A DNA stretch of 64,000 nt. Origin: Myxococcales bacterium. Lineage in GTDB: Bacteria > Lernaellota > Lernaellaia > Lernaellales > Lernaellaceae. Under the pieces are notes generated by a model, which did no database searches, was not told the origin of the DNA, and saw nothing but the letters and a program-made list of their open reading frames with translations. The translations under genes were made by a program, and so were the position numbers. The stretch is taken from assembly GCA_012517325.1 (NCBI GenBank), contig JAAYVF010000085.1, positions 75,673-139,672 of the forward strand. The letters run 5' to 3'. Of this stretch, positions 9,146 to 40,276 are shown piece by piece; the first letter of the stretch is position 1; the number at the start of each line of letters is the position of its first letter.

Positions 9146-9146
9146 G

Positions 9147-15961: not shown

Positions 15962-16000
15962 TCGTGTTGCCGCGATCAGGTTGCGCGGGGAGAAAGGAAA

Positions 16001-17299: not shown

Positions 17300-17311
17300 G
17301 GAGGTGGGGTC

Positions 17312-17866: not shown

Positions 17867-17931
17867 TAACTGAGAAAACTCAATAATAATGATTATATTT
17901 GAGTTGGCATGCTAATTATCTGAGGAATTAA

Positions 17932-19158: not shown

Positions 19159-19165
19159 GCTGCCG

Positions 19166-20044: not shown

Positions 20045-20056
20045 GAGAAACGGCGC

Positions 20057-22261: not shown

Positions 22262-23184
22262 TTCTGGTTACGGGAGGCGCGGGTTTCATCGGCTCGCATC
22301 TGGTGCGCGGTTTGCTCGCGCGCGGCGAGCGCGTCCGTATTTTAGACAATCTTTCTTCCGGCAAGCGGGCCAACATCGCGGGCCTGGACGTCGAGTTCGA
22401 GCCGGCCGATCTGCGCGACGAGGCGGCGGTCGCGGCGGCGGTCCGCGGGGTGGATGCCGTGTATCACCTGGCGGCGGTCGTCAGCGTGCCGCAGACGGTG
22501 GCCGATCCGGCGACCAGCCACGACGTCAACGTGACGGGCACCTATCGCCTGCTCGAAAACGCCCGGCTGGCCGGGGTGCGGCGGTTCATTTTCTCGTCCA
22601 GCGCCGCCGTTTACGGCGACGAGCCGTCGCTGCCGAAGCGCGAAACTTCGCCGCTGGCGCCGCGCAGCCCGTACGCGCTGCACAAATTGATCGGCGAACA
22701 GTATTTGAAACTCTATGCCGACCTCTACGGCATGGACACCATGAGCTTCCGTTACTTCAACGTGTTCGGCCCGCGCCAGGATCCGCTGGGTGCCTATGCG
22801 GCGGCGATTCCGAAGTTCGTCGAAGCCATGGCCGCCGGCGTTTCGCCGACGATCTTCGGCGACGGCCGCCAGACGCGCGATTTCGTCTTCGTGGAAGACG
22901 TGGTCGCCGCCAACCTTGCCGCGCTCAAGGCCGAACGGCCGGCCGGCCGGGTGATCAACGTCGCCGGCGGCAGGCGCATCGATTTGTTGGAGTTGCTTGG
23001 CGCGCTGGAAACGGTGTTTCAACGCGAAGCCAAGCCGGTTTTCGCCGCGCCCCGGCCCGGCGACGTGCGCCACAGCGTGGCGGCGACCGACGAGGCGGCG
23101 GCCTACCTGGGTTTTCACCCCCGGACCTCGCTTACCGAAGGCCTGGCGCAAACCGTGCGGTGGATGCTCCAGAGCGGAGGATGA
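22258..23184 (+). CDS. NAD-dependent sugar epimerase/dehydratase (SDR family, UDP-hexose 4-epimerase-like)
   Basis: VTGGAGFIGSHL Rossmann motif, catalytic YxxxK (YALHKLIGEQY). ATGA overlap with wzc. Confidence 0.85.
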   Translation: MILVTGGAGFIGSHLVRGLLARGERVRILDNLSSGKRANIAGLDVEFEPADLRDEAAVAAAVRGVDAVYHLAAVVSVPQTVADPATSHDVNVTGTYRLLENARLAGVRRFIFSSSAAVYGDEPSLPKRETSPLAPRSPYALHKLIGEQYLKLYADLYGMDTMSFRYFNVFGPRQDPLGAYAAAIPKFVEAMAAGVSPTIFGDGRQTRDFVFVEDVVAANLAALKAERPAGRVINVAGGRRIDLLELLGALETVFQREAKPVFAAPRPGDVRHSVAATDEAAAYLGFHPRTSLTEGLAQTVRWMLQSGG

Positions 23185-23191
23185 GCGTTTT

Positions 23192-24562
23192 ATGGGCCAG
23201 CATGAACGCGATCGGACTTTCTCAGCGATCCTCGAATCGCTGGTCGCGGCGATCGTCGTTCTGTCGGTTGTGCTCTTCGGCGGCAAAGGCCAGCTCTATT
23301 CCAGCCTGCTGAATCTGCTGGGTTTGTTGTTGCTGGGTTTGACGGTGACTCTGCGCCGGCGGCGCGGCGAGCCGCGGCCCGTCTCGCGCCAGCGGCACGT
23401 CTACCAAGAACCGTGGGCCGCGTACGGCCTGCTGGTCGCCTTTCTGCTCGTGCAACTCGCGCAACTGGTTCCGTTGCCGAGCCTGGCGGTGCGCCTGCTG
23501 GCCGGTTGGCGGCCGGACGGCTATTTCGCCCGGTTGACCCCGTATCCCGAGGCCACGATCCGGTCGTTTCTTTCCTGGATTCCGCCGTTCGCGGTGTTTG
23601 CGGCCATCACCGCTCTCTACCACACGCGTCATGAAGTGCGGCGGCTCACGATCGGCCTGTTCCTGCTCGCCGCCGCCGTTTCGCTCTACGGCATCGTTGA
23701 GACGATCAGCGGCCGCGAAGCCATCTGGACGGTGGCGAAACTGGCCTATCGCGGCAGCGTCACCGGCACGTTCATCAATCGCAACAATTTCGCCGCTTTC
23801 GCGGCGCTGGGCCTGGGCGCGGGCCTGGGGCTGATCTTTTACCGCTTGTGGAAGACGGGCGGCACGCCGAGGCAGGAAGGCGGGATCGAGCGGCTGGTGC
23901 TGCTGGTTTTTACGGGCGTGATCTGCCTGCTGGGCATTTTGTTGTCCCGCAGCCGCGGCGGCTTGGCCGGGCTGGTCCTGGCCGGCTTGCCGGTGGCCTG
24001 GTGGCTCGTCGGCCGGCGCTATCACAAGGCGTTCACCCTGCTCGCGGCCGTGATGGTCGTGGTGACGATCGGCATGGGGTTGTGGATCAGCCAGGAACCG
24101 TTGACGCAGCGGTTCAACACCTTGCCGGAAGAGGCGGGGGCGACAGATTCGCGGCCGGCCGCCTGGTGGACGAGCTTGCGGATCGCCGCGCGTGGGCCGC
24201 TGCTGGGCGTCGGGGCCGGCACGTTCGTCGACCAATTCCGCGTGACGCCCGAGACGGGCGTCTTGGTGCGTTACAATCACGCGCATTCCGATCCGCTGGA
24301 GTTTCTGGCGGAAACGGGGTTGATCGGGTTTCTGGCGTTTTACGGCGGGATTTTCTGGACGATGTGGGCGGCGTGGCGCGCGCTGAGCCTGCGCCACAGC
24401 CGTTTTTCCCGGGCGCTGACGATCGGCGCGCTGACCGGTCTGACGGCGGTCTTGTTTCACGGGCTGTACGATTTTCCGCTCCAGATTCCGGGCGTCCGCA
24501 TCCCGTTTTTCGCCCTGCTCGGCGTGGCTTACGTGGCCGCCAACCGGAGGTTGACGCGATGA
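23192..24562 (+). CDS. O-antigen ligase / Wzy_C-family polytopic membrane protein (paralog 1)
   Basis: About 12 predicted TMs. SRSRGGLAGL and large periplasmic loop with the NHAHSDPLEFLAETG motif typical of Wzy_C. Start trimmed from the 22997 ORF to the ATG at 23192. Confidence 0.7.
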   Translation: MGQHERDRTFSAILESLVAAIVVLSVVLFGGKGQLYSSLLNLLGLLLLGLTVTLRRRRGEPRPVSRQRHVYQEPWAAYGLLVAFLLVQLAQLVPLPSLAVRLLAGWRPDGYFARLTPYPEATIRSFLSWIPPFAVFAAITALYHTRHEVRRLTIGLFLLAAAVSLYGIVETISGREAIWTVAKLAYRGSVTGTFINRNNFAAFAALGLGAGLGLIFYRLWKTGGTPRQEGGIERLVLLVFTGVICLLGILLSRSRGGLAGLVLAGLPVAWWLVGRRYHKAFTLLAAVMVVVTIGMGLWISQEPLTQRFNTLPEEAGATDSRPAAWWTSLRIAARGPLLGVGAGTFVDQFRVTPETGVLVRYNHAHSDPLEFLAETGLIGFLAFYGGIFWTMWAAWRALSLRHSRFSRALTIGALTGLTAVLFHGLYDFPLQIPGVRIPFFALLGVAYVAANRRLTR

Positions 24563-25923
24563 GCCGGTCGCCGAACCGATCGCTTTTGTTAACGACGATT
24601 TGGAGCCTGCTCCTGGCGGTGCTGTTCGGGAAAGCTGGCGCCGTCTTTCTCTCGAGCGTGCCCGCGCACGAATTGACCATGGAACGGCGGATGTTGCGCG
24701 AAGCCGGCAAAACGCCGTCCCCCGAGCATTTGATCCACGAATGGTCCAGCCTCTCGCGCGCGCTGTACTGGTCGCCGGGCGATGCCGATTTGTGGTTCCA
24801 ACTGGGCCGCAATCTGCACCGCGTCGCCTTGGCGGATGTCCCGGTTCCCAAGAGTTACCTCGGCGAGATCGGCGCTTTCCTTTCGTTGCCCGCGCCGCAA
24901 CAGCCGGGCGATCAGCGCGAACTGCTGCTGACCGGCGCGATCGCGGCCTACGACCGGGCCGTCGCGGCCAACCAATTGGTGTCGGGCGCGCGCTTCTGGC
25001 GATTGGCGGCGCGGGACGCGATCGCCGCCGACAAACCCGAACCATGGGAAAACGACCTCAAACCGGCGGTGCAAAAGGCGCTGGAGTTCGATCCGAACGA
25101 TCCGGCGGCCTGGCGCGCGGCCGGTGAAATGGCGCTCCGGCACGACGATCCGGATGCCGCGGTGCTCTGGCTCAAAGGGTCGCTGACCGTGAAATTGGAC
25201 GGCCTGGAGCGGGTCGCCGAAACCCTGCTGACCCTACCCGAGGGCAGTCGGCGTTTCGGCGAGGTCATCCCGGAAAAGGCGGAAGCCTGGAAGCGGCTGG
25301 CGCGCTATCTGTTCACGCAATGGCGGGTGCCTTCGGCGGTCGAGGCGTTCGACCATGCCATGCGTCTGGCCGGCACGACCGCGATCCGGCCGCCGGAAGG
25401 GGAAGCGGTTTCCGACGGCGATTTCGCGGACGATTCCGAACGCCTGCTGCATCCCTGGCGCATCGAGGCCGCACGCGGCGTGAAAACGATCCGCCGGGTG
25501 GAACAGCGCCAGCTCGAGGTGGTCTTTCAACGGGGACCGGCCAATTGGTACCATGTCTGGCAAGAAGTGGCGGTCGAGCCGGGACGGAACTATCGGTTGT
25601 CGGCCTCTTTGCAGGTCGACGGTTTTTCCCCCGATGAAACGTTCGGGGTGGAAGCGGTGCATCCCTACGAGATTTCACTGTTCGCCGCCAACGCGCGGTG
25701 TTACGCCGCCGCCGGCCCCTCGTACCGCCAGCCGTTGCCGGTGAGCGACGGCCGTTTTGTCACCGTCGAAACGACGTTCCGGGCGCCGGACGGTGTACGG
25801 GTGCTGATCGTCCGGCCGCGACGATTCGGCGGCGACGAAAAAGCGAGCGGCACGCTCCGCATCCGCGCCGTGTCCCTACGGCAGACGGCCGAGCCGGAGG
25901 ATTCCGCCGTTGACCCGAGTTAG
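24559..25923 (+). CDS. Membrane-anchored hypothetical protein with TPR-like helical region and C-terminal beta-sandwich (carbohydrate-binding-like) domain
   Basis: N-terminal signal anchor (LLLTTIWSLLLAVLFG). Helical repeats with W/A-rich TPR-like motifs. Beta-rich C-terminus. ATGA overlap with the preceding Wzy_C gene. The 5' part of ORF 23848..25923 overlaps the ligase and was trimmed. Confidence 0.45.
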   Translation: MSRSPNRSLLLTTIWSLLLAVLFGKAGAVFLSSVPAHELTMERRMLREAGKTPSPEHLIHEWSSLSRALYWSPGDADLWFQLGRNLHRVALADVPVPKSYLGEIGAFLSLPAPQQPGDQRELLLTGAIAAYDRAVAANQLVSGARFWRLAARDAIAADKPEPWENDLKPAVQKALEFDPNDPAAWRAAGEMALRHDDPDAAVLWLKGSLTVKLDGLERVAETLLTLPEGSRRFGEVIPEKAEAWKRLARYLFTQWRVPSAVEAFDHAMRLAGTTAIRPPEGEAVSDGDFADDSERLLHPWRIEAARGVKTIRRVEQRQLEVVFQRGPANWYHVWQEVAVEPGRNYRLSASLQVDGFSPDETFGVEAVHPYEISLFAANARCYAAAGPSYRQPLPVSDGRFVTVETTFRAPDGVRVLIVRPRRFGGDEKASGTLRIRAVSLRQTAEPEDSAVDPS

Positions 25924-27568
25924 CGTCGTCATCCGCACCTACAACGAAGCGGCGCACATCGAGGCGACGTTGCGCGCCGTCCTGGAGCAGCGCGAGGTCG
26001 AGCCCGAGGTCATCGTCGTCGATTCGGAAAGCACCGACCGGACGCGGGAGCTGGTCGCGGCGTTTCCCGTTCGGTTGATCGTCATCCCGAAAAAAACCTT
26101 TTCTTACGGCCGCGCCCTGAACGCGGGCTTCGCGGCGGCGACCGCTCCCTTCGTCACCAGCCTTTCGGCCCACGCCTTGCCGTTCGACCGGCACTGGCTG
26201 CGCAATCTGGTGCGGCCCCTGGCCGATCCCCTGGTCGACGGCGTGGTCGGCAAGACGCTGCCGCACCCGGATTGCAACCCGTTCGACCGTCGCGGACTGT
26301 TGCGGCAATACGGCGTCGTTTCGGGTTACCTGTGCGACGGGCGGATTCCCGGCTTTTCCAACGCCAACAGCGCCGTTCGGCGCGCCGCCTGGGAAGTCGA
26401 GCCGTTCGACGAGACGCTGCCGTATTCCGAGGACGTGCGCTGGGCCCGGCGGCGGCAGGGGCTGGGCCGTTACCTGGTCTACGCAGCGGACGCGGTGGTC
26501 TACCACAGCCACAACGAGACGCCCGCCGAATTGCGCCGGCGTTTTTGGGGTGAAAGCCGCGCCCGCGAAATCCTCGATCCGCACAATCCGCGCTACCGCG
26601 GCACGGCGCTCGCCTGGGACCTGACCGCCGGAACGCTCTACGATTGGTGGACGCTGGCCCGCGAGCGGCTGCCGTGGCATTGGTGGCCCTTCGCCTGGCG
26701 GCGCCGGGCGGCCATCAACGCCGGGCGCTACGCCGGTTCGCGCGGCATCCAATTGTCGGCCGAGGGGCGTCTGTGGCCCAATCTGCTGCGGCGCGCCTGG
26801 TTGCGCCCCCTGCGTTTTCTGGGCTCGCTGGCCGGCCGCCTCGCGCCCTATCTGGTGGTCTGGACCCGCAAACATCCGCGACCGTTGCATCCGAAGCACC
26901 TGCTGGGCGAGCGCGAGGATCATTACTGGTACGCGCCGGAATTGGCGGGCGGCGCCCGCGCGCTCGATGTCGGTTGCAACGTCGGCGCGCACTCGCACTT
27001 CGCCGCGCGGCAGGGTCTGGCGGTCGTCGGCATGGACGTCGATCCGCGGGCGCTGGGCCACGCGCGGTTTCTGCTGGGCTGGGAAAAAATGCGGCGGGCC
27101 CTGGTCGTCCAGGCCGACGCCGACCGGACTTTTCCGCTGGCGGACGCCGTGTTCGACCGCGTACTGGCCTTCGACGTGATCGAGCACATTGCCGACCCCG
27201 TGCATTTGCTGGCCGAAATCCGGCGCGTGCTGACGCCTGACGGCCTGCTCCTGCTGACCGCGCCGAACGCGGAAACGACCTGGAAAAAACGCTACCGCGC
27301 CGCCGGCCTGCCGTTTTTCGCCGACGTTTCGCACCGGGTGGAATACACGCGCGCCGGCATCGAGAAAACCCTGAACGAGGCGGGCTTCGCGGTGCTGCGC
27401 GACGAACCGATCGTCGCCGATACGCCGGCCGCGCCGTGGTACGATCTGCTCGGCGCGATCAGCCTGAAACTTTATGCCCGGCTGGCGGCGAAAAAGCGCC
27501 GGGCGGCCCTGGCCCGGCCCGCGGACAGCACCGGTTTCCGGCTGGTGGCGCGAAAGGTCGGGAAGTGA
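25910..27568 (+). CDS. Bifunctional family-2 glycosyltransferase / class-I SAM-dependent methyltransferase fusion
   Basis: N-terminus VSVVIRTYNEA...VIVVDSESTD (GT2 DXD region). C-terminus has LDVGCNVGAHS SAM-binding motif I and downstream motifs (VLAFDVIEHIADP, LTPDGLLLLTAPN). TTG start. Confidence 0.75.
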   Translation: MTRVSVVIRTYNEAAHIEATLRAVLEQREVEPEVIVVDSESTDRTRELVAAFPVRLIVIPKKTFSYGRALNAGFAAATAPFVTSLSAHALPFDRHWLRNLVRPLADPLVDGVVGKTLPHPDCNPFDRRGLLRQYGVVSGYLCDGRIPGFSNANSAVRRAAWEVEPFDETLPYSEDVRWARRRQGLGRYLVYAADAVVYHSHNETPAELRRRFWGESRAREILDPHNPRYRGTALAWDLTAGTLYDWWTLARERLPWHWWPFAWRRRAAINAGRYAGSRGIQLSAEGRLWPNLLRRAWLRPLRFLGSLAGRLAPYLVVWTRKHPRPLHPKHLLGEREDHYWYAPELAGGARALDVGCNVGAHSHFAARQGLAVVGMDVDPRALGHARFLLGWEKMRRALVVQADADRTFPLADAVFDRVLAFDVIEHIADPVHLLAEIRRVLTPDGLLLLTAPNAETTWKKRYRAAGLPFFADVSHRVEYTRAGIEKTLNEAGFAVLRDEPIVADTPAAPWYDLLGAISLKLYARLAAKKRRAALARPADSTGFRLVARKVGK

Positions 27569-30500
27569 TGCACGTCGCGCTGCTGACCGATTATTTCGTT
27601 CCCCACGCGCCGGGCGGTGCGGAGTGGAGCGCCCTGGCGTTGGCCGAAGGCCTGGCCGCGCGCGGGGATCGGGTTTCGGTGGTGACGCTCGATCTGGCCG
27701 ACGCCGCCGCGCGACCGGCGGTCGAGCGCCTGGACGGCGAGCTGGCCGGGCGCGGCATCCGGGTCGAGCGGTTGCCCTTCGGCCGGAAAATGAGCGGCGA
27801 ACCACAGACGTTTCCCAGCTACGTTTTCGGCAATCCCTGGACCGAACGGCGATTGTCCGGGCGCGTCGCGGCCGCCGTGGCCGCGTTACGACCCGACGTG
27901 CTGCACGTACAGGGCCTGGGCCTTTTGATTCCCGGCCACTTCGCCGCCCGCGCCCACAACCGACCGCTCCTATTCACCGTGCGCGATTACCGGCCGCTCT
28001 GCCCGGTCGCCATTTGCCTCCATCGGCAGGACGCGCCGCCGCGCGGTTGCGACCGTCGCCGCTTTCGCGCCTGCACCCGCGAGTACCTCGAGATTTACGG
28101 CCTGGCGCTGTCGGCCGCCGCGCGCCTCCGTTATCGGCTGCGTCGCGAGTTGGAATGGTCGGCGCGGCTGCGGCAGGCGCGCGTGTTTCCGGAACTCGAC
28201 GCCGCGGTCTTTGTTTCCGCCGCCGCGCGGCAACATTACCTGGCCGCCGGAATGACCGCCCGCCACCTGGCGGTGATTCACAATCCGCCGGTGCCGGAAA
28301 GCGATTTTGCCGATCCCGATGAGTTGCGCCGCCGCTTCGGCCTGAACGGCCCGGTCGCGCTGTTCGTCGGCCGGTGGTCGCTCGGCAAGGGCGCGGCGGA
28401 AATGAGCCGCGCCTGGGATCTGGTGACGAGCCGGCTGCCCGCCGCGCAGCTCGTGATCGTCGGCCGCCGCGAGTCCGGCGAAACGCCGCTGGACGGCCGG
28501 GTCGTGTTCACCGGACCGCTGCCGCATCGCGAGGTGTTGGGGCTCATGCAGGCCGCCGCCGTGCACGTGCTGCCCTCGCGTTGGCCGGAGCCGTTCAGCC
28601 GCACAGCGCTCGAGGCCATGGCGGCGGCGCGGCCGATCGTCGCCACGGCGGTGGGCGGCAATCCGGAACTGGTGCGCGACGGCGAAACGGGCTGGCTCGT
28701 GCCGCGCGGCGATCCGGCGGCGTTCGCTTCCCGGCTGGCGGATTTGCTGGGCGATCCGGAACGGGCCGAGGCGATGGGCGCGGCGGGACGGGCGCGCCTC
28801 GGCGCGGAGTTATCGGCCGAAAAATCGCTGGCCGAATGGCAGGCGCTTTACGCGGCGGTCGCCGAACGGCGCGGGAAGCTGCTGCGCGTTTGCGCGCCGG
28901 CCACCAGCCTGTCGGAAAAAACCGTGCAGGGCGGCGGCTACTTCCACGTCAAGAATCTGCAGGCGCTGGCGGCGCGGGGCGTCGCGCTGCGCATCCCGCT
29001 GGCTTTCCGTCCCGAATACGAGCCGCGCGAAAATTGGGATGTGCGGCCGATTCCGGTGCGCCGCGCCTACAAGCTCGGCGCGCTCTTGTCCAACCTCGTT
29101 TTCGGCGGCGCGGTCGTCGGGCAAGCGGCGTTTCGCCGGCGATTCGATTTGCTGCGGATCGGCGACCTCTACCACATGGGGCCGGGGCTGCTTCTGGCGG
29201 CGCGGCTGTGCGGCCTGCCGACCTGCGGCGTCCTGCATCACATCGATCACGAGCGCCGCCTCGAAAACGCGGTGGTCGGTTGGACGGCCCGCCGGCTCGA
29301 TTGTCTGACCGTGCCCAGCCGCGCGACCGCCGCGGACGTGGCACGCACCTTCGGCGTCGATCCGCTGCGGATTCGCGTCATCGCCGAAGGAGCGACGATT
29401 TTCGCGGGCGCCGCGGCCGACCGGGCCGAGGCACGGCGGCGGCTGAATCTGCCGGACGGGCCGCTGCTCGGCTTTGTCGGCGGTCTGGAAGCGCGCAAGA
29501 ACGTCGATTTTCTGCTGCGGGCGTTCGCCCTTCTGGCGGCGCAAATTCCCGCTGCGCGGCTGCTGGTGGTCGGCGACGGTTCGCAACGCGCCGCGCTGGA
29601 GGATCAGGCCCGTGCGCTGGGCGTCGGCGATCGCGTAGTCTTCGCGGGGCGGTTGTTCGAGGAAGGTAAGGCCAACGCTTATCGCGCCATGGACCTGTTC
29701 GTCTTTCCGAGCCGCAACGAGGGATTCGGGCTGGCGGTCGCCGAGGCGATGGCGATGGGCGTGCCGCCGGTGGTCAGCGACCGCGGCAGTTTGCCCGAGG
29801 TGGTCGTCGATCGCGTCACCGGGCGCGTGTTGTCGCTCGACGATCCGGCGGCCTGGGTGGCGGCCTGCGGCGAACTGCTGCGCGACGAAAGCGAGCGGGC
29901 CCGGCTTGGCGCGGCGGCGCGGGAGCACGCGGCGACGAACTTCACCTGGGAAGCGAGCGCGGCGGATGCCGAAGCGGCGTTTCGCGCGGTGCTGGCCGAA
30001 AAAAAGGAAATCAACCTCGGCGTGCTGCTCAACTCCGGCGATTCGCTGGCCGTGATGAAGCGCGAGGGGCAGGAGGATCGCTTCGTGCGCTCCTACCTCG
30101 GGCGGTACGCCGCCTCGTTCGACCGGGTTTACGTGTTCTCGTACGGCGACGACCGCTTGCGGCCGTATCCGAACGCCGTCTTCGTGCCCGGACGGCCTCG
30201 CTGGAAAGGCCCGCTCTATGCGGCGCTCGCGCCGTTTCTGCACGCCGCGACCTTCCGCCGGCTGGCGCTCTTGCGCGTGATGCAGACCGGCGCGGCCTTG
30301 CCCGCCGTGCTGGCGCGCCTGCTGTACGGCGTACCGTTCGTCGCGACGTACGGCTATCGCTACGGCGACTTCATGCGGGTCAAGGGCCGCCGGCTTTACG
30401 GCTGGTACCTCGACCGGCTGGAGCGCCTCACGTTCCGCCTCGCCGCGCGGGTGATCGTGACCACGCCCGCCTTGCAGGCGCACGTGGCGCGCTTCGCCAC

Positions 30501-32196
30501 TCCCGAAAAAATCGCGCTCTTGCCCAATGGCGTCGAACTAGATCGCTTTTGTCCCGGCGAGCGGCAGGAATCCGCGGCGAAAAAAACCTTGCTTTTCGTC
30601 GGCCGCCTGACCGCGCAAAAAAAATTGCCCCTGTTGATTGAAGCGCTGGCGCCCTTACGCGATCGCGTCCGGTTGATCTGCGTCGGCGCCGGCGAGGAGG
30701 AAACCGCTTGGCGGCGCCTGGCCGCCGAACATGGCGTGGAGGTCGATTGGCGCGGCGTGGTGCCCAACGAACAGTTGCCGGAAATTTATCGCCGGGCCGA
30801 TCTGTTCGTTCTGCCCAGCCGCGTCGAAGGGCATCCGAAAGCGCTGCTCGAGGCGATGGCCAGCGGCCTGCCGTGCCTCGGAGCCGCCGCGCCGGGCATT
30901 CGCGACGTCCTCACGCATGACGTGGACGGCTGGCTGGCCGAACCGGACCGGGACGCCTGGCGCAAGGCGGTGGAACGGTTGCTGGACGACCCGGCGACGG
31001 CGCGCCGCCTGGGAGACGAGGCGCGGCGGACGGCGTTGTCGCGGTACGATTTGAAGGCGGTGCTGGACCGGGAAATCGAGTTGCTGTGCTCGGTGGTTCG
31101 CGGGCGGACCGGCCGGCCGCGCGTGCGCTTCCTGTTCAACAAGCCGCGCGCGGCGATGCTGGCGGCGGCGCGCGAGGGGCGGTGCCCCGACGAGTTGCTT
31201 TACGGCCTGCGATCGCTGCAGAAACGGGGTTGGGACGCGAGCGCCGGCGACGAGGGTTTCGCCGCTTTCTTCGGCGGCGGTCTGCTCAAGGCGCTGGACA
31301 ACCGGCTCAGTTGCGACGGCCGGCGGACCGGTTTCCATTTGCGGCAGGCCTGGCGGCTGCGCGACGAACTGCGCCGCGCGGATGTCGTGTTCGCGACCGC
31401 CGACAGCTCCGCGCTGCCGGTCTTGTGGCTCAAGCGGCTCGGCCTGCTGACGACGCCCGTCGTCTGCGCCAGCATCGGGCTGGCCGAAACGTTCGCCGCC
31501 GATCGCGGCCCGGTATATCGTTGGTACAAGCGGCTGTTGCCGCTGGCTTCGGCGATTCTGGTCTATTCGCCCGCCGAGGCCGCGGAACTGGGCGCGGCGT
31601 TCGCCTTGCCGCGCGAGAAGGTGCGCTTCGTGCCGTTCGGCGTCGAGTGCGAATTCTTCGCCGGAACCGCCGCACCGGTGGGCCGCCCGTTGGCCTTCGG
31701 CCTGGATCAGCGACGCGATTGGCCGACGTTGTTCGCCGCTCTGCGGCAGGCTGAAATCGAAATGGATGTCCTGACCAACCCGGATTTGCTGCGCGGCCTG
31801 ACGCCGCCGCCCCAGGCGCGGCTGGCGGCGCCCGAGCCGATCGACCGCCTGCGCGACCGCCTGCGCCGCGCGCCGTTTGTGGTGTTGCCGGTGAAAGAGA
31901 ACCTATACAGCGGCGGGACGATCAGCCTGTTGCAGGCGATGGCCGCCGGCCGTGCGGTGATCGTTTCGCGGACCCGCGCCATCGCCGACGGTTACGGCCT
32001 CGCCGATGGCGAAAACTGCCTGCTCGTGCCGCCCGGCGATGTCGCCGCCCTGGCCGCGGCGATCGCCCGCCTGGCGCATGATCCGTCCTTGGCTGCGCGT
32101 TTGGGCGCGGCGGCGCGGGATCACGTCTGCCGGCATTATTCCGTCGAGCGGCTCGCGGCGGCCGTCGATGCGGCCCTGCGGGAGGCGATGCCATGA
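27568..32196 (+). CDS. Giant multi-module glycosyltransferase (four tandem GT4/GT-B modules in one 1,542-aa polypeptide)
   Basis: Four repeats of the GT4 architecture. Each ends in the E(x)7E-type sugar-donor binding region: SRWPEPFSRTALEAMAAARPIVAT; SRNEGFGLAVAEAMAMGVPPVVS; SRVEGHPKALLEAMASGLPCLGA; ENLYSGGTISLLQAMAAGRAVIVS. ATGA overlap with the upstream gene. Confidence 0.8.
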   Translation: MHVALLTDYFVPHAPGGAEWSALALAEGLAARGDRVSVVTLDLADAAARPAVERLDGELAGRGIRVERLPFGRKMSGEPQTFPSYVFGNPWTERRLSGRVAAAVAALRPDVLHVQGLGLLIPGHFAARAHNRPLLFTVRDYRPLCPVAICLHRQDAPPRGCDRRRFRACTREYLEIYGLALSAAARLRYRLRRELEWSARLRQARVFPELDAAVFVSAAARQHYLAAGMTARHLAVIHNPPVPESDFADPDELRRRFGLNGPVALFVGRWSLGKGAAEMSRAWDLVTSRLPAAQLVIVGRRESGETPLDGRVVFTGPLPHREVLGLMQAAAVHVLPSRWPEPFSRTALEAMAAARPIVATAVGGNPELVRDGETGWLVPRGDPAAFASRLADLLGDPERAEAMGAAGRARLGAELSAEKSLAEWQALYAAVAERRGKLLRVCAPATSLSEKTVQGGGYFHVKNLQALAARGVALRIPLAFRPEYEPRENWDVRPIPVRRAYKLGALLSNLVFGGAVVGQAAFRRRFDLLRIGDLYHMGPGLLLAARLCGLPTCGVLHHIDHERRLENAVVGWTARRLDCLTVPSRATAADVARTFGVDPLRIRVIAEGATIFAGAAADRAEARRRLNLPDGPLLGFVGGLEARKNVDFLLRAFALLAAQIPAARLLVVGDGSQRAALEDQARALGVGDRVVFAGRLFEEGKANAYRAMDLFVFPSRNEGFGLAVAEAMAMGVPPVVSDRGSLPEVVVDRVTGRVLSLDDPAAWVAACGELLRDESERARLGAAAREHAATNFTWEASAADAEAAFRAVLAEKKEINLGVLLNSGDSLAVMKREGQEDRFVRSYLGRYAASFDRVYVFSYGDDRLRPYPNAVFVPGRPRWKGPLYAALAPFLHAATFRRLALLRVMQTGAALPAVLARLLYGVPFVATYGYRYGDFMRVKGRRLYGWYLDRLERLTFRLAARVIVTTPALQAHVARFATPEKIALLPNGVELDRFCPGERQESAAKKTLLFVGRLTAQKKLPLLIEALAPLRDRVRLICVGAGEEETAWRRLAAEHGVEVDWRGVVPNEQLPEIYRRADLFVLPSRVEGHPKALLEAMASGLPCLGAAAPGIRDVLTHDVDGWLAEPDRDAWRKAVERLLDDPATARRLGDEARRTALSRYDLKAVLDREIELLCSVVRGRTGRPRVRFLFNKPRAAMLAAAREGRCPDELLYGLRSLQKRGWDASAGDEGFAAFFGGGLLKALDNRLSCDGRRTGFHLRQAWRLRDELRRADVVFATADSSALPVLWLKRLGLLTTPVVCASIGLAETFAADRGPVYRWYKRLLPLASAILVYSPAEAAELGAAFALPREKVRFVPFGVECEFFAGTAAPVGRPLAFGLDQRRDWPTLFAALRQAEIEMDVLTNPDLLRGLTPPPQARLAAPEPIDRLRDRLRRAPFVVLPVKENLYSGGTISLLQAMAAGRAVIVSRTRAIADGYGLADGENCLLVPPGDVAALAAAIARLAHDPSLAARLGAAARDHVCRHYSVERLAAAVDAALREAMP

Positions 32197-34529
32197 TCCG
32201 CCGGCTCGCCGATCGCTTCGACGTGGACCTGTCCTACTACCTGTCGGGCGGTTCGCTGCTGCTCATCGACCAGGGAGTCGGCATGGTCACCGGCCTGGCG
32301 ACCGCCTGGTGCTTCTCGACCTACGCGCCGAAGACGACCTACGGCGCCTACGGCTACATCGGCGCGATCGTCGGCATGCTGTCGCTGATCGCCTTGCCGG
32401 GCGTCAGCCAGGCGATTCAGCGTTCGGCGGCGCGCGGCTTCGACGGCGCCTTCGCGATCGGCATGCGCCAGCGCCTGAAAGCGGGCGGCGTCGCCAGCGT
32501 GATCCTGCTGCTGCTCGGGGCGATCTTTTTCCTCAGCGGCCAGCAGGCGAACGCGGTGGGCGCGCTGGTGGCGTCGGTCCTTTTCCCCTTCGCCTACGCG
32601 ATGGATGATTACCGCAGCGTGCTGTTCGGCAAGCAGCGCTTCGGGTTGTACCTGGCGCTGCACACGATGTTGCAGGTCGCGGTGGCCGCCGGGACGATCG
32701 CGGCGATCCTGCTGTCGTTTTCCTTCCCGGCGATCCTGTTCGCCAACATGGCCTCGCGGGCCGTGGTCAACGGCGCCTGGTGGCTGGCGGTGCAGAAGAC
32801 GGTGATCGCCAACCGCAAGGTGGACGCCGATTTTCGGCGTTACGGTTGGAACCTCAGCCTCGTGGGCATCGTCGGCGGCATCAGCTATCACCTGGATCGC
32901 GTGATCGTCGGCGCGACCCTCGGCCTGGAAACGATGGCCGCCTACGAGTTGTCGTTCCGCCTGACCGAGCCGTTGCGCTCGCTGGGCGTTTTTCTCAACA
33001 AGCTGGTGTTTCCGCGCGCGGTGAAAGTCTCCGGCGCGGCGGTGGCGCGACGGTTCTTATCGCGCACGTTCATCATGAGCGCCGGCCTGGCGGGCCTGGG
33101 CGTGATCGGCGTCTGGCTTTGCGGGCCGGCGATCCGCCTGGTGTTTCCCAATTACCCCGAGGCGATCGGCATGACGCGCTGGATGATCTGGTCGGCGCTG
33201 ATCTCGATTGTGCTGATCTACCTCGAAACCTATTACCTGGCGCAGGAACGTTTCGTCCGCACCTATTACGCGGTCAGCGCCTTGCGGCCGATCGGGATCA
33301 TCGTCCTGCTGCCGTTTTTCATCGCCCGCTGGGGCGCCTACGGCGCGATCGGCGCCAAGCTGCTGGTCCGCGTGTTCGAGGCGGTTTTCCTGGTCGCCAA
33401 GCTGACCGCCGACTGGCTGCTGTTGTGGCGCGAGGAAGCCATCGAAAAGCCGGGTTCGTTGCCGCTCGGCCCGCAGGAATGGGGGCGCTGTCCGTTGTGC
33501 GGCGACCCCGCAACCCGGCCGCGCTGGACCGTCCGCGACCGCCTGCACGGCCTGCCGGGCCGCTTCTCGCTGGTGCAGTGCCGCGGCTGCGGCTTGCTGC
33601 GCCTGCAACCGCGCCTGACGGCGAACGCCGTCGGGCTTTATTACCCGCCGGATTACGGTGCGCACCGGCAGGAAAGGCCGGCGGCGCTGGGGCGGGGGCG
33701 CACGCATCGCTGGCGGCGGCTCTGGGTGGAATGGCTGCTGGCCGGCCGGCCGGGGCCGGGAGAAATCGGCTGGCGGCGCGCCGCGCTCACCTGGCCGGCC
33801 CGGCTGTTCGGGTTGACCGCGGCGGCGCGGTTCAATCCATTCGCGTATCCCGGCGAGGGCCGGCGCCTGCTCGACATCGGTTGCGCCAGCGGCGATTTTC
33901 TGGTGGAAATGCGGGCGCTCGGCTGGGACGCGAGCGGCGTCGAATTCGCCGAGAGCGCGGCGGCGACGGCGCGCGAACGGGGCCTGACGGTCACCGTTGG
34001 TTCGTTCCCCGAGGTGGCCGGGGCGCTGCCGGGCGCTTACGATCTGATCGCCATGCGGCAGGTCGTCGAGCATTTGTCCGATCCGGCGGCGGCGTTGCGG
34101 CAGGTCCGCGAACTGCTGGCGCCGAGCGGCGCGCTGTTGCTGGCGACGCCGCTGGCCGACGGCTGGCTGGCGCGCGCGGCCGGAAGATACTGGTATCCGC
34201 TCGACCCGCCGCGGCATACGATGGTGTTTGATCGCCGGCAACTGGCGGCGCTATTGCGGATCGCCGGTTTCCGGGTGGCGGCGCTGCTGGATCATTCCAG
34301 CACCACGTCCTGGACCCGCAGCCTCGACTATTGGCTGGCGGATCTGCCGTGGAACGCCCGCCCGCCGCGGGTCGACCGGTCGCGGCTGCTTCATCGGCTG
34401 CTGGCCGGACCGACGCGGCTGAGCGACTGGTTCGGGCGGGGTGACGGCGGTATCGTGCTGGCGGTGCGCGACGACGCGCCGGCGGCCGGCTGGGCGCCGC
34501 GCGAGATTCAGGAAGGAAGAGTGCGATGA
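32193..34529 (+). CDS. Wzx-like MOP-superfamily flippase fused to a zinc-ribbon + class-I SAM methyltransferase domain
   Basis: About 410-aa N-terminus with about 12 TMs (polysaccharide biosynthesis/RfbX-like). Then CPLCG...CRGCG zinc ribbon. Then LLDIGCASGDF SAM motif I and VVEHLSDP/LLLATP methyltransferase motifs. ATGA overlap upstream. Confidence 0.75.
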   Translation: MIRRLADRFDVDLSYYLSGGSLLLIDQGVGMVTGLATAWCFSTYAPKTTYGAYGYIGAIVGMLSLIALPGVSQAIQRSAARGFDGAFAIGMRQRLKAGGVASVILLLLGAIFFLSGQQANAVGALVASVLFPFAYAMDDYRSVLFGKQRFGLYLALHTMLQVAVAAGTIAAILLSFSFPAILFANMASRAVVNGAWWLAVQKTVIANRKVDADFRRYGWNLSLVGIVGGISYHLDRVIVGATLGLETMAAYELSFRLTEPLRSLGVFLNKLVFPRAVKVSGAAVARRFLSRTFIMSAGLAGLGVIGVWLCGPAIRLVFPNYPEAIGMTRWMIWSALISIVLIYLETYYLAQERFVRTYYAVSALRPIGIIVLLPFFIARWGAYGAIGAKLLVRVFEAVFLVAKLTADWLLLWREEAIEKPGSLPLGPQEWGRCPLCGDPATRPRWTVRDRLHGLPGRFSLVQCRGCGLLRLQPRLTANAVGLYYPPDYGAHRQERPAALGRGRTHRWRRLWVEWLLAGRPGPGEIGWRRAALTWPARLFGLTAAARFNPFAYPGEGRRLLDIGCASGDFLVEMRALGWDASGVEFAESAAATARERGLTVTVGSFPEVAGALPGAYDLIAMRQVVEHLSDPAAALRQVRELLAPSGALLLATPLADGWLARAAGRYWYPLDPPRHTMVFDRRQLAALLRIAGFRVAALLDHSSTTSWTRSLDYWLADLPWNARPPRVDRSRLLHRLLAGPTRLSDWFGRGDGGIVLAVRDDAPAAGWAPREIQEGRVR

Positions 34530-36046
34530 GTCCGGGCGGTTGGCGGGATCTGGGCGGGGCGGGGCTGGAGCGCGGGTTGCGTTCGGCCGGCCGCTCGCTG
34601 GCCCTGATGCCGCGCCAGATCTTCGACGTCATCATCCTGCTGCTGGGCGCGATGGTGATGATCTACCTGTTCATCTACCGGGCGCCGTATTACGCCGTCG
34701 GTTTCGTCGTCGTGCTGTTCGCCGTGTTGTTTCTCATGCGCCAGCCGGTCAACCTCAGCTACGCGCTGTTCGCCCTGATCCCCGTCTACTGGATGAACCT
34801 GCTCGGCCAAAGCCTGCGCGTGGTGACGGTGCTGACGTTGATCGGTTTTACCTATCATCTCGGTCGTGCCGTCCTGCGGCGCCAGCGCGGTCTGTACAAT
34901 ACGGTTTACCTGGGCTTCCTGCTCTACCTGATCACCTGCCTGTTCAGCCTGTTCAATTCCGCCAGCATCGCGGAGGAAAGCTGGCCGGGCATCAAATATT
35001 TTCTGTTGGCGCTGATGCTGATGTTCGTCCTGACGGCGAGCCTCAAGACCGAGCGCGACCTGCGCATCCTGTTCTGGATCCTCTTGCTGTGGGGGCTCGT
35101 CGAATCCGTGTTGGGGCTGTTGCAGACGCTGGTTTCGCCGCGCTTCTATCTCGCGCAGACCTACCTGTCGATCATCGACGCCTACAGCGTCGGCGGGGTT
35201 CGCCGCGCGTCGGGCACCTTCCAGATCGGGCCGCGTTACGCGATGTACCTGATGGGACCGCTGGCGCTGGTGGTCGCCGGCCTGTTTTCGGGCCGGATCC
35301 TGAGCCGCCGCACCTGGTTGCTGTTTCTGGTGCCGCTGGTCGGCGGCGTGTTCGTCAGCCTGACGCGCATCGCGGTCGGCTTGAGCTTCGCCTATCTGGT
35401 GCTGTTCAATTTCTTCGAGCGCCGCCGCAAGGCGTTGATCGCCAGCCTCGCCGGCCTGCTCCTGGCCGCGGTGGTGGTGGCCACCGTGCTGGTCGTGCTG
35501 CCCGCCGACGTGAAGGGCGCGTTCATGCAGCGGTTCACCGAGAAAGACGACGAAATCTACACCGACCGGTTGTACTTCCTGTGGAACGCGCTGGGCGCCT
35601 TCAGCGAGCATCCGTTTCTCGGCATCGGCGTGGGCACCTACGAGGGCCGATCGTGGGAATTCATGCAGAAGTACCCGTTGCCGTGGCGGCAGTACCGCTG
35701 GGATGTCGCGGCGCAATGGAGCATGCCCGAGACGGTGCCGGTGCACAACGAGTACGGGCGCATGCTCGCCGAGCAAGGCCTGTTTTCGCTGCCGGTCTTT
35801 CTCTTTTTGCTCTGGGCGGCGTTTCGGAATCTGTGGTTCGTCATCCACGAGACGCAACGGCCGCTGGTTCGGCTGTGGGGCGTCGCCGTGGCGATGTACC
35901 TGAGTGCCATGGTGGTCTATTGGTATTTCCACGAGTATTTCATGGAGGAGCCCTATACCTCCATCATGCCTTTCGCGTTGAGCGTCATTCTGTACAATTT
36001 CGTCCGAAGGGAAGTGGCGGAACGTGCGAGCGGCGAAACGTCCTAA
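34526..36046 (+). CDS. O-antigen ligase / Wzy_C-family polymerase-like membrane protein (paralog 2)
   Basis: Polytopic. LTRIAVGLSFAYL and periplasmic loop FSEHPFLGIGVGTYEG characteristic of Wzy_C. ATGA overlap upstream. Confidence 0.75.
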   Translation: MSPGGWRDLGGAGLERGLRSAGRSLALMPRQIFDVIILLLGAMVMIYLFIYRAPYYAVGFVVVLFAVLFLMRQPVNLSYALFALIPVYWMNLLGQSLRVVTVLTLIGFTYHLGRAVLRRQRGLYNTVYLGFLLYLITCLFSLFNSASIAEESWPGIKYFLLALMLMFVLTASLKTERDLRILFWILLLWGLVESVLGLLQTLVSPRFYLAQTYLSIIDAYSVGGVRRASGTFQIGPRYAMYLMGPLALVVAGLFSGRILSRRTWLLFLVPLVGGVFVSLTRIAVGLSFAYLVLFNFFERRRKALIASLAGLLLAAVVVATVLVVLPADVKGAFMQRFTEKDDEIYTDRLYFLWNALGAFSEHPFLGIGVGTYEGRSWEFMQKYPLPWRQYRWDVAAQWSMPETVPVHNEYGRMLAEQGLFSLPVFLFLLWAAFRNLWFVIHETQRPLVRLWGVAVAMYLSAMVVYWYFHEYFMEEPYTSIMPFALSVILYNFVRREVAERASGETS

Positions 36047-37097
36047 AATCCTCTTTCTGGCCAATTGGCCCCGGACGACGCGCGAACCCGAGCGGTTCGC
36101 GTTTTTCGCCCATTGGCGCAGCCGGCCGCTGGTGCGGTTCTTCGGCACATTCGCGCTCGGGCCGGTGACGCGGTTCGAGAAGCAAACGCTGCGTTTCTAC
36201 CTGCTGCAACCGCTGGCGGCGTTGTTCCTGGCACCGTTTTACGACGCGGTGGTGGCGTTTTCCTCGCAGTCGGGCCTGCCGTTCGCGCTGTTGCTCCGGC
36301 TTTGTTTCTGGATGCGGACCCGGCTGATCGTTTTCGACGTCGAATCGTTCGGCCGCGCCGAACGCGGCGTCAAACTGGCGCTGACCCGCTTCGCCGCGCG
36401 CCGCATCGATTGGGTCGTTTATGCCGCCAGCGGCCAGGCCGCCTATTACGACCGGCATTTTCCGTTTTTAGCCGCCCGCCGTTCGTTCGTGCCGATCGGC
36501 ATCGGCGGCTACGAAAAACGGCAGCCGGACGACGCCGGGCGCGACGGCCCGGTGGTCGTGCCGGGCAAGCACGGCGCCGCCTTTCGCGACTGGGCGACCT
36601 TTCTGCGCGCCGCCGCGACGATCGGCGACGCGGTCGAGTTTGTCATCGTCGGCCGCGACGAACTGCCCGCCGCCGAACGGGACGGCGTGCCGATTCCACC
36701 GAACGTTCGTCTGCTTCCTTACGTGCCGCTCGATCGCCTGCAGGAAATCCTGGAAACCGCGCGGTTCGTCGTCCTGCCGCTGCCGGATCGCGCCCAGAGC
36801 CTCGGGCAGTTGACCATCCTCTTCGCCATGGCCATGGGCCGCGCCGTGGTGGCGGCGCGGACGGTCGGCGTGCGCGATTACCTGCGCGAAGGCGAGACGG
36901 GCCTCGGCTACCGGCCGGGCGACGCCGCCGAACTGGCCGATTGCCTGCGCCGGATGCTGGCCGATCCGGACCGGACGATCGCCTGGGGCCGCCGCGCGCG
37001 CGAATTGTACCGCGAGGAATTCGGCGACGAACGGATGGGCCGCCGCTGGGAAGAGATCTATTGCCGTGTCGTGGGGCGGACACCGCCCGCCGATTAA
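36024..37097 (+). CDS. GT4-family glycosyltransferase
   Basis: KILFLANW N-terminal start and a C-terminal GT-B donor-binding region (LPDRAQSLGQLTILFAMAMGRAVV). GTG start overlapping the Wzy_C stop. Confidence 0.7.
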   Translation: MRAAKRPKILFLANWPRTTREPERFAFFAHWRSRPLVRFFGTFALGPVTRFEKQTLRFYLLQPLAALFLAPFYDAVVAFSSQSGLPFALLLRLCFWMRTRLIVFDVESFGRAERGVKLALTRFAARRIDWVVYAASGQAAYYDRHFPFLAARRSFVPIGIGGYEKRQPDDAGRDGPVVVPGKHGAAFRDWATFLRAAATIGDAVEFVIVGRDELPAAERDGVPIPPNVRLLPYVPLDRLQEILETARFVVLPLPDRAQSLGQLTILFAMAMGRAVVAARTVGVRDYLREGETGLGYRPGDAAELADCLRRMLADPDRTIAWGRRARELYREEFGDERMGRRWEEIYCRVVGRTPPAD

Positions 37098-40122: not shown

Positions 40123-40276
40123 CGGCGGCTCCGTCAACAGTCTGTTGAAAAAGGCCGTCCTGGCCTTTTTCAACCGCGCTCAACAAAAAGCGTGGTTTTT
40201 CTTTCGCTTCATTTTCGGCAACTTCGGAAGTTGCCGAAAATGGCGATCCATCCCTGGATCGCACGCCGGGTGTTTT

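What the first reader, a model, noticed from the sequence alone, without database searches (positions are those of the whole stretch)
27568..32196. Single 1,542-aa polypeptide carrying four tandem GT4 glycosyltransferase modules
Four complete GT-B/GT4 units, each with its own E(x)7E-type donor-binding signature, are fused in one ORF with no intervening stops. This was checked across the whole ORF by the continuity of the translated frame and the recurrence of the motif four times. Bacterial GTs are normally encoded separately, and dual-module GTs are uncommon. A four-module assembly-line GT that could build a tetrasaccharide processively is highly unusual.
Basis: seen in the sequence. Interest (0 to 1): 0.65.

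Follow-up and report, generated by a model that had tools for sequence, protein, structure and literature searches.

The report
Four fused GT4 glycosyltransferases, last fusion lineage-specific
One 1,542-residue gene in an exopolysaccharide gene cluster really does encode four different sugar-adding enzymes joined end to end, but relatives already join two or three of them and only the last join is special to this genome, so it is an extreme case of a known habit, not a new kind of machine.

Summary
The ORF is real. It runs 27568-32196 (+), 1,542 aa, with no stop, and is identical to NCBI NLH49881.1 (Myxococcales MAG). It holds four complete GT-B/GT4 modules, each passing the Pfam N- and C-domain cut-offs. 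The modules share only 28-35% identity, so they are four different enzymes and not recent duplicates.

One detail is wrong. Only modules 1-3 carry a canonical EX7E motif. Module 4 belongs to a conserved subfamily with S/T and Q at those two positions, although its model is a confident GT4 fold.

About 17 related loci show a stepwise fusion series:
- M1 | M2-M3 | M4
- M1-M2-M3 | M4
- M1-M2-M3-M4, seen only in this window

In every relative, M4 is a separate gene starting at or within a few bases of the M3 stop. In the window the stop, the start codon and the Shine-Dalgarno motif have all been replaced, in frame and at equal length. That points to an evolved fusion and not a sequencing error.

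The operon context is Wza, Wzc, Wzx-methyltransferase and two Wzy-like proteins. This indicates stepwise assembly of a lipid-linked repeat unit, not processive polymerisation. Multi-module glycosyltransferases are known, for example WbdA with two or three modules. Interest is modest.

The parts
27568..32196 (+). Complete ORF, 1,542 aa, four fused GT4 modules (identical to NLH49881.1)
27568..28878 (+). Module 1 (aa 1-437). GT4 with an enlarged N-domain insertion carrying invariant C145, C150, H152 and C169. Has the GG loop (G16, G17), R269/K274 and EX7E at E341-E349 (nt 28588-28614).
28879..30009 (+). Module 2 (aa 438-814). The strongest GT4 match. Has GGG 455-457, R643/K644 and EX7E at E718-E726 (nt 29719-29745).
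30010..31113 (+). Module 3 (aa 815-1182). GT4 with R1013/K1018 and EX7E at E1087-E1095 (nt 30826-30852).
31114..32193 (+). Module 4 (aa 1183-1542). Divergent GT4 subfamily. The EX7E position reads S1448...Q1456 (nt 31909-31935) within the conserved motif VLPV[RK]xNxY[ST]G[AG]TxxLLQAMA. It is a stand-alone gene in every relative examined.
31099..31116 (+). M3-M4 fusion scar. ACC (31108-31110) sits where relatives have TAA/TGA. GGC (31111-31113) sits where they have the CCG spacer. CGG (31114-31116) sits where they have ATG. Upstream, CGCGGGCGG replaces the GAGGGA/GGAGG Shine-Dalgarno motif of relatives.
25910..27568 (+). Upstream gene: GT2 glycosyltransferase fused to a SAM methyltransferase. 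Its stop overlaps the ATG of the four-module ORF.
32193..34529 (+). Downstream gene: Wzx-type flippase (Polysacc_synt) fused to a SAM methyltransferase, with an ATGA overlap.
34526..36046 (+). Wzy_C polymerase/ligase-like membrane protein (second of two)
36024..37097 (+). Separate further GT-B (GT1/GT4-like) glycosyltransferase, the sixth GT domain in the operon
19061..25923 (+). Upstream operon genes. Wza-type exporter (19061-20044), Wzc-type chain-length determinant/tyrosine kinase (20057-22261), NAD-dependent sugar epimerase/dehydratase (22258-23184), first Wzy_C protein (within 22997-24562) and a TPR protein (within 23848-25923).

Best explanation
This is a genuine single polypeptide made of four different retaining GT-B (GT4-family) glycosyltransferases joined head to tail. 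Each junction is the C-terminal helix of one module followed by 3-4 residues and then the first beta-strand of the next.

It sits in a tightly overlapping operon for a Wzx/Wzy-type exopolysaccharide: Wza, Wzc, epimerase, Wzy-like, GT2-methyltransferase, this gene, Wzx-methyltransferase, Wzy-like and one more GT.

The most likely function (inferred) is as follows. At the cytoplasmic face of the inner membrane, each module uses its own nucleotide-sugar site to add one particular sugar in one linkage to an undecaprenyl-diphosphate-linked repeat unit. The polypeptide therefore supplies up to four consecutive or neighbouring steps of repeat-unit assembly. Fusion would enforce equal stoichiometry and co-localisation. 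The unit would then be flipped by Wzx, polymerised by Wzy and exported by Wzc/Wza.

The four-module state arose by stepwise gene fusion (shown). M2-M3 is the oldest fusion. M1 joined in one clade. In this genome's lineage alone, the in-frame stop-spacer-start between M3 and the adjacent M4 gene was converted to sense codons.
For: ORF continuity and coupling to neighbours.

Four full GT4 modules above Pfam cut-offs.

M1-M3 align to solved retaining GT4 enzymes (MshA 3c4q, PimB' 3oka, 6kih, BshA) with EX7E intact. The GG, R/K and EX7E residues are invariant in 8 orthologues.

The M4 AlphaFold model has pLDDT 94 and pTM 0.92. Its best structural matches are MshA, methylmannose mannosyltransferase 7qsg, PglA and GlgM, with TM about 0.7. 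M4 keeps every residue that is invariant in its 35-member family.

Modules are only 28-35% identical to each other.

Fusion series:
- M1 | M2-M3 | M4 in L007, L008, L079, L080 and L082.
- M1-M2-M3 | M4 in L001, L003, L004, L006 and L074.
- M3 | M4 separate in all other loci.
Sources. Stand-alone two-module M2-M3 proteins at 34-47% identity, and stand-alone M4 proteins, appear.

Junction: the nearest relative, L074 (73-79% identity), reads GAG GGA CGA TAA CCG ATG. The window reads CGC GGG CGG ACC GGC CGG. The length is the same, 8 of the 9 bases of stop-spacer-start differ, and the SD motif is lost.

The AF2 model of M1-M3 (pLDDT 84.6, pTM 0.63) shows helix, 3 residues, then strand at both conserved junctions. 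The M4 model starts its first strand at residue 3.

Operon context and synteny.
Against: - No biochemical data exist. Donor sugars, acceptors and the order of action are unknown.
- No initiating phosphoglycosyltransferase was found in the parts of the window scanned.
- M4 lacks both EX7E glutamates, so its catalytic competence is inferred only from conservation and fold.
- The four-module form rests on one assembled MAG contig. Reads could not be inspected, and the contig was not retrievable from the contig index.
- A Wzt-like ABC ATPase with a Wzt_C domain lies about 9 kb downstream on the other strand. This leaves some room for a different export route.
Confidence: 0.75

Rival explanations
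1. WbdA-like polymerase. The multi-GT4 protein would act iteratively as a cytoplasmic polymerase of an ABC-transporter-dependent glycan. The fused methyltransferases would cap the chain, and the nearby Wzt-like ATPase, through its C-terminal carbohydrate-binding domain, would recognise the capped end.
For: WbdA polymerases carry two or three mannosyl GT modules, one per linkage type. Chains in those systems are terminated by methyl or phospho-methyl groups added by the separate terminating enzyme WbdD (PMC11231755). The window has an ABC_tran + Wzt_C protein at about 41290-42500 (-). Two methyltransferase domains sit in the GT operon.
Against: The GT operon itself encodes Wzx, two Wzy_C proteins, Wzc and Wza, and this set is syntenic in all relatives. 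No Wzm permease was found beside the Wzt-like gene, which is embedded among radical-SAM genes on the opposite strand. No coiled-coil WbdD-like terminator was seen. The modules are four divergent enzymes, and two further GTs are encoded in the operon, which fits a complex repeat unit.
Confidence: 0.1
2. Artefact. The M3-M4 join is a sequencing or assembly error in a MAG, and the organism really has a three-module gene plus a separate M4 gene like all its relatives.
For: The four-module form is seen in a single contig or cluster with one member. All roughly 17 relatives are unfused. Reads are unavailable, and the contig is not in the contig index.
Against: The junction has exactly the same length as in L074, L001 and L003, so there is no indel to blame. 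8 of the 9 bases of stop-spacer-start differ from the closest relative, and the upstream SD motif is also changed. A single base-call error cannot produce this. There is no stop in any frame across 31080-31140. The same protein sequence is listed from the NCBI, ENA and Logan sources.
Confidence: 0.04
3. Three active enzymes plus a non-catalytic fourth module. On this reading M4 and its stand-alone orthologues have lost transferase chemistry and act as a scaffold, an acceptor- or lipid-binding partner, or a regulator of M1-M3.
For: Both EX7E glutamates are replaced (S/T266, Q274 in M4 numbering) throughout the M4 family. M4 is the weakest Pfam match.
Against: M4 models as a confident, complete GT-B fold. 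A different but strictly conserved motif lies in the donor-site loop (N263, Y265 and T269 invariant, Q274 in 31 of 35). Invariant G196, D198 and R201 lie in the stretch where canonical GT4 enzymes carry their GRxxxxKG phosphate-binding loop; this placement was judged by eye, not from a residue-level alignment. Conservation of pocket residues argues for ligand binding and probably catalysis.
Confidence: 0.15

Closest known systems
WbdA polymannose polymerases (E. coli O9a/O8, K. pneumoniae O3/O5)
   Same: One polypeptide containing two (O9/O3) or three (O8/O5) glycosyltransferase modules, one module per linkage type (PMC11231755).
   Different: WbdA works in an ABC-transporter-dependent pathway as an iterating polymerase with a WbdD terminator. 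The gene here lies in a Wzx/Wzy/Wzc/Wza operon, has four modules, and its fourth module lacks EX7E. Sequence orthology to WbdA was not tested.
Three-module orthologues of this protein (P0002-P0008, 1,177-1,186 aa, 57-64% identity; the truncated L074 gene, 74-79%)
   Same: They share M1-M2-M3 order, linkers, catalytic residues and the whole operon synteny.
   Different: In all of them M4 is a separate gene of 358-361 aa that starts at or within a few bases of the M3 stop and has its own SD and ATG/GTG.
Single-module retaining GT4 enzymes with solved structures (MshA 3c4q, PimA 2gej, PimB' 3oka, BshA 5d00, PglA 8dqd, ManT 7qsg)
   Same: Each module has the same two-Rossmann GT-B fold. M1-M3 also share the EX7E and R/K donor-site residues.
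   Different: These are stand-alone proteins of about 360-440 aa. Identity to the modules is low (11-20% in the structural alignments for M4).
Predicted four-GT-domain proteins of giant viruses (Moumouvirus australiensis ma468, 1,666 aa; Tupanvirus R496)
   Same: Four glycosyltransferase domains are predicted in one polypeptide (PMC10117803).
   Different: They are viral and uncharacterised, with unspecified or mixed GT families. No relationship to this protein was tested.

Membership tests
CAZy GT4-type GT-B glycosyltransferase (each module) | N-terminal GT4 domain (PF13439/PF13579) plus C-terminal GT1 domain (PF00534/PF13692), both above the Pfam gathering score | tested here: met
   All four separately scanned pieces pass for both halves. 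M4 is the weakest (PF13692 52.5 bits, PF13439 37.3 bits).
CAZy GT4-type GT-B glycosyltransferase (each module) | Two-Rossmann GT-B fold | tested here: met
   M4 model: pLDDT 94, Foldseek top hits MshA, ManT, PglA and GlgM with TM about 0.7. M1-M3 model: pLDDT 84.6 with alternating beta/alpha elements in six domains.
CAZy GT4-type GT-B glycosyltransferase (each module) | EX7E motif in the C-terminal domain | tested here: not met
   Met in M1 (E341/E349), M2 (E718/E726) and M3 (E1087/E1095), and invariant in 8 orthologues. Not met in M4: S and Q occupy those positions, and this is conserved in 35 family members. M4 is therefore GT4-like by fold and profile but atypical.
CAZy GT4-type GT-B glycosyltransferase (each module) | Basic residue(s) binding the donor diphosphate at the start of the C-domain (GRxxxxKG-type loop) | tested here: inconclusive
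   R269/K274, R643/K644 and R1013/K1018 are invariant in M1-M3. M4 has invariant G196, D198 and R201 in the corresponding stretch of sequence. This placement was judged by eye from primary sequence, and no alignment of that loop to a solved GT4 was made. The role of these residues is inferred from position only.
CAZy GT4-type GT-B glycosyltransferase (each module) | Retaining transfer from an NDP-sugar | not testable with these tools
   Needs enzyme assays.
WbdA-type multi-module polymerase of ABC-transporter-dependent glycans | Several GT modules in one polypeptide | tested here: met
   Four modules.
WbdA-type multi-module polymerase of ABC-transporter-dependent glycans | Encoded with a Wzm/Wzt exporter and a chain terminator; no Wzx/Wzy | tested here: not met
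   The operon has Wzx-MT, two Wzy_C proteins, Wzc and Wza. A Wzt-like ATPase lies about 9 kb away on the other strand, with no Wzm found.
Repeat-unit glycosyltransferase of a Wzx/Wzy-dependent polysaccharide locus | Co-operonic with Wzx flippase, Wzy polymerase, PCP/tyrosine kinase and OPX exporter | tested here: met
   The same set is syntenic in relatives.
Repeat-unit glycosyltransferase of a Wzx/Wzy-dependent polysaccharide locus | An initiating phosphoglycosyltransferase in the locus | tested here: not met
   No Bac_transf or MraY-type hit among the ORFs scanned in the window. It may be encoded elsewhere.
PEP-CTERM/XrtA-system glycosyltransferase (TIGR03088 stp2) and EpsE (NF041876) | Score above the curated NCBIfam cut-off | tested here: not met
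   310 bits summed over four modules, against cut-offs of 409 and 400. Neighbouring genes also fall below the PEP-CTERM family cut-offs.

The most novel reading that the evidence does not exclude
The family could be a natural series (1+2+1, then 3+1, then 4 modules) of a fixed multi-enzyme assembly line for a lipid-linked repeat unit in a Wzx/Wzy pathway. On this reading the modules pack in a defined geometry and hand the growing glycan from site to site. The separate M1 and M4 proteins of relatives would dock in the same positions that they occupy when fused. That would make the window protein a ready-made single-chain model of a glycosyltransferase complex that is otherwise only presumed to exist.
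Probability: 0.25. Interest if true: 0.5.

Novelty: new variant of a known kind. Interest (0 to 1): 0.3.

Why it matters
How the soluble glycosyltransferases of Wzx/Wzy pathways are organised at the membrane is poorly known. They might act as free enzymes or as ordered complexes.

This family provides natural two-, three- and four-module single chains of the same enzymes, alongside unfused orthologues. That gives a simple handle for structural work on such complexes. It may also help engineering of multi-step glycan synthesis from one gene.

It is also a clean example of how overlapping or adjacent stop and start codons in tightly coupled operons become gene fusions. Beyond that it is an ordinary, uncharacterised exopolysaccharide locus in an uncultured bacterium.

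Tried and rejected
I used M2-M4 instead.
- Looking up the contig of P0001 returned nothing on record, so neither independent assemblies nor reads could be examined.
- A mixed alignment meant to model M3-M4 (A4) mis-registered the three-module proteins by one module and was discarded. I modelled M4 alone and M1-M3 instead.
- The M4-only homology search did not return the window protein itself. This shows the word-index search can miss long fusions. The uniqueness claim therefore rests on the full-length search, the exhaustive search and direct inspection of about 17 loci.
- The promoter and terminator scan of the operon was uninformative: 0 promoter-like sites, and terminator-like hits scattered inside genes.
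- Literature searches for multi-GT4 fusions in Wzy-dependent pathways found nothing specific.
- PEP-CTERM/XrtA membership was considered and rejected because all hits were below the cut-offs.
- Recent tandem duplication was considered as the origin of the modules and rejected, because they are only 28-35% identical.
- The Wzt-like gene could not be checked in relatives because their fetched loci end before that distance.


Full report

The six-frame ORF list shows an open frame on the + strand that ends at 32196. Its longest form starts at GTG 27436. The ATG at 27568 overlaps the TGA of the upstream gene (…GAA GTG ATG CAC…).

The stop at 32194-32196 overlaps the ATG of the next gene (CC ATG A). 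The ORF is therefore embedded in a translationally coupled operon. The protein is identical to NCBI NLH49881.1, 'MAG: glycosyltransferase family 4 protein [Myxococcales bacterium]', from a 156.5-kb contig.

Pfam finds four stretches each of the GT4 N-terminal families (PF13439, PF13579) and the GT1 C-terminal families (PF00534, PF13692), with E-values down to 5e-120. I cut the protein at the obvious boundaries:

| Module | Residues |
|---|---|
| M1 | 1-437 |
| M2 | 438-814 |
| M3 | 815-1182 |
| M4 | 1183-1542 |

Each piece independently passes the gathering cut-offs for both halves of a GT-B enzyme. The four-module architecture is therefore confirmed.

**2. What is wrong in the observation?**

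The EX7E claim holds only three times. The motif sits at the expected place in M1 (E341…E349), M2 (E718…E726) and M3 (E1087…E1095). The other three regex hits lie elsewhere and are chance matches.

Alignments to solved GT4 enzymes confirm the placement in M1-M3. In M4 the aligned residues are Ser and Gln: …LYSGGTISLLQAMA… against …LYEGFSLPAVEAMA… of 7qsg.

In an alignment of 35 M4-family proteins the local signature is VLPV[RK]xNxY[ST]G[AG]TxxLLQAMA. N263, Y265 and T269 are invariant and Q274 is present in 31 of 35. M4 is nevertheless a complete GT-B enzyme by fold. Its AlphaFold model has pLDDT 94 and pTM 0.92. The best PDB matches are MshA, the methylmannose-polysaccharide mannosyltransferase 7qsg, PglA and GlgM, at TM about 0.7.

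**3. The modules are different enzymes.**

Pairwise identity between modules is 28-35% over partial alignments. The ORF is therefore not an array of recent duplicates. It is a concatenation of four distinct GT4 lineages, as expected if each makes a different linkage.

In eight orthologues the GG loop, the R/K pair and both glutamates of M1-M3 are invariant. The AlphaFold model of M1-M3 (pLDDT 84.6, pTM 0.63) shows six alternating alpha/beta domains. At both internal junctions the last helix of one module (417-436, 794-812) is followed after three residues by the first strand of the next (440-442, 816-820).

The M3-M4 junction has the same form. M3's last helix is 1162-1181, and M4's first strand starts at its residue 3.

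**4. Where the fusion came from.**

The closest relatives found with the full-length query are 1,177-1,186 aa and cover only 76% of the protein, which corresponds to M1-M3.

Their contigs show the same operon. Immediately after the three-module gene comes a separate GT4 gene of 358-360 aa, starting 1-3 nt after the stop. That gene is the orthologue of M4 at 60-65% identity. It aligns from its first residue: MPRVLMLFNKPRA against the window's RPRVRFLFNKPRA.

An M4-only search returned 37 relatives, all stand-alone at 320-428 aa. The nearest (P0173, 73% identity) again follows a fused M1-M2-M3 gene.

tblastn of the four modules against loci from the contig index, from GTDB genomes and from JGI/ENA metagenomes gave the frame of each module in about 17 related loci:

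| State | Loci |
|---|---|
| M1 \| M2-M3 \| M4 | L007, L008, L079, L080, L082 |
| M1-M2-M3 \| M4 | L001/L002, L003, L004, L006, L074 |
| M3 \| M4 separate, contig truncated upstream | L005, L009, L075-L078, L081 |
| M1-M2-M3-M4 | window only |

In L007 and L008, M1 ends …GEGRS-TGA and M2 starts at a TTG two bases later.

The exhaustive HMMER search of 1.84 billion representatives with M2-M4 found the following:
- the three-module representative;
- several two-module M2-M3 proteins of 741-758 aa at 34-47% identity;
- many stand-alone M3-like and M4-like proteins;
- no other protein whose match spans the M3-M4 junction among the best 150.

The order of events is therefore M2-M3 first, then M1, then M4 in this lineage only.

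**5. Is the last fusion an artefact?**

The junction alignment shows the following.

| Source | Sequence |
|---|---|
| L074 | …GTG GTC GAG GGA CGA TAA CCG ATG CCG CGC GTT… |
| window | …GTG GTT CGC GGG CGG ACC GGC CGG CCG CGC GTG… |

The two have the same length and frame. The stop has become Thr, the spacer Gly and the ATG Arg, with 8 of these 9 bases different. The Shine-Dalgarno-like GAGGGA/GAAGGA/GGAGG that precedes M4 in all five aligned relatives has been degraded to GCGGGCGG.

No stop occurs in any frame across 31080-31140. No single miscall or indel can produce this pattern. I put an assembly or sequencing artefact at about 4%, but reads could not be examined.

**6. Context and likely mechanism.**

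The + strand operon reads as follows:
- a BBP2-type outer-membrane barrel
- a Wza-type exporter
- a Wzc-type co-polymerase/tyrosine kinase (TIGR01007 above its cut-off)
- a sugar epimerase/dehydratase
- a Wzy_C protein
- a TPR protein
- a GT2-methyltransferase fusion
- the four-module GT4
- a Wzx-methyltransferase fusion
- a second Wzy_C protein
- one more GT-B enzyme

This set is syntenic in the relatives. It is the gene complement of a Wzx/Wzy-dependent exopolysaccharide pathway.

By established knowledge of such pathways, the cytoplasmic glycosyltransferases add sugars one at a time to an undecaprenyl-diphosphate-linked repeat unit before flipping and polymerisation. I therefore infer that each module contributes one defined transfer. 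Fusion would serve stoichiometry and proximity, not processivity.

What is shown and what is inferred:
- Shown: architecture, fold, motif conservation, fusion history and operon context.
- Inferred: substrates, order of action and any channeling.

No initiating phosphoglycosyltransferase was found in the scanned ORFs.

**7. Rivals.**

- *WbdA-like polymerase in an ABC-transporter pathway.* This is suggested by the multi-module architecture (PMC11231755), the methyltransferase domains, and a Wzt-like ATPase with a Wzt_C domain about 9 kb downstream. However, that gene lies among four radical-SAM/SPASM genes on the other strand with no Wzm permease, while the GT operon has its own Wzx and Wzy. 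I give this about 0.1.
- *Non-catalytic M4.* This is possible because the EX7E glutamates are missing. The strict conservation of an alternative pocket motif and the intact fold argue against it. I give this about 0.15.
- *Artefact.* About 0.04.

**8. Comparison with what is known.**

Multi-module glycosyltransferases are well established. WbdA has two or three mannosyl GT modules, one per linkage. WbbM, WbbY and the K. pneumoniae O7 and O12 proteins have two.

Among the largest multi-GT4 proteins in my top-150 list, all six that I scanned carry three GT4 modules plus other domains such as methyltransferase, deacetylase or DUF2206. Four predicted GT domains in one chain have been noted in giant viruses (ma468, Tupanvirus R496).

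I found no characterised bacterial protein with four GT4 modules and none in a Wzx/Wzy context. A proper census was not possible with the tools.

The locus resembles PEP-CTERM/XrtA-type EPS loci in its best NCBIfam hits, but all fall below the curated cut-offs. It is not a member.

**9. Verdict.**

The ORF and its four GT4 modules are real. The fourth module is atypical. The four-module state is the last, lineage-specific step of a fusion series that is otherwise conserved.

It is a new variant of a known kind, the multi-module glycosyltransferase. It has modest interest (0.3), mainly as a natural single-chain model of a repeat-unit assembly complex.

Noticed in passing
window 32193-34529 (+): A Wzx-type flippase (Polysacc_synt, aa 23-275) is fused to a C-terminal SAM methyltransferase (aa 551-696). 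The fusion is conserved at 47-81% identity in near-full-length matches in nine relatives (L009 is more distant, at 37%). A membrane flippase carrying a cytoplasmic sugar-modifying domain is itself an unusual architecture.
   Followed up: partly
window 25910-27568 (+): A GT2 glycosyltransferase is fused to a SAM methyltransferase (552 aa), conserved at 69-74% identity in relatives. The operon as a whole is rich in fusions.
   Followed up: partly
window 27997-28077 (M1 aa 144-170): The enlarged N-domain insertion of module 1 carries C145, C150, H152 and C169, invariant in 8 orthologues (LCPxxxCLH…C). It is a possible metal-binding site. The AlphaFold model has low confidence there (pLDDT <50 at 151-154).
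   Followed up: no
window 37094-43748 (-): Four radical-SAM/SPASM genes lie convergent to the GT operon (37094-38776, 38560-40173, 40277-41320, 42528-43748). An ABC ATPase with a Wzt_C carbohydrate-binding domain (about 41290-42500) sits between them, and no Wzm permease was found. Two of the four (37094-38776 and 38560-40173) have clear syntenic orthologues in relatives at 60-73% identity. The 42528 gene matches relatives only at 27-31%, and the 40277 gene gave no match. The role of these genes in the polysaccharide is unknown.
   Followed up: partly
window 22997-24562 and 34526-36046 (+): There are two different Wzy_C (O-antigen ligase/polymerase-like) membrane proteins in one operon. The first weakly resembles the exosortase-associated 'O-glycosylation ligase' TIGR03097 (48 bits, cut-off 188).
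   Followed up: no
window 6977-13774 (+) and 4000-22000 overall: Very large TPR-repeat ORFs (722 aa, 1,190 aa and an overlapping 612 aa) are followed by ExbD- and TonB-like genes. This region has clearly lower G+C (0.55-0.60, against 0.65-0.71 for 22-48 kb) and strongly positive AT skew.
   Followed up: no
L001 19491-21531, L003 19485-20775: Relatives carry a beta-helix (NosD-like) gene and a GDSL lipase/esterase gene between the last GT and the radical-SAM genes. The window and its closest relative L074 lack both.
   Followed up: no
(tool behaviour): The word-indexed homology search with M4 alone did not return the 1,542-aa window protein, which contains M4 at 100% identity. Long fusion proteins can therefore be missed by that route.
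   Followed up: yes
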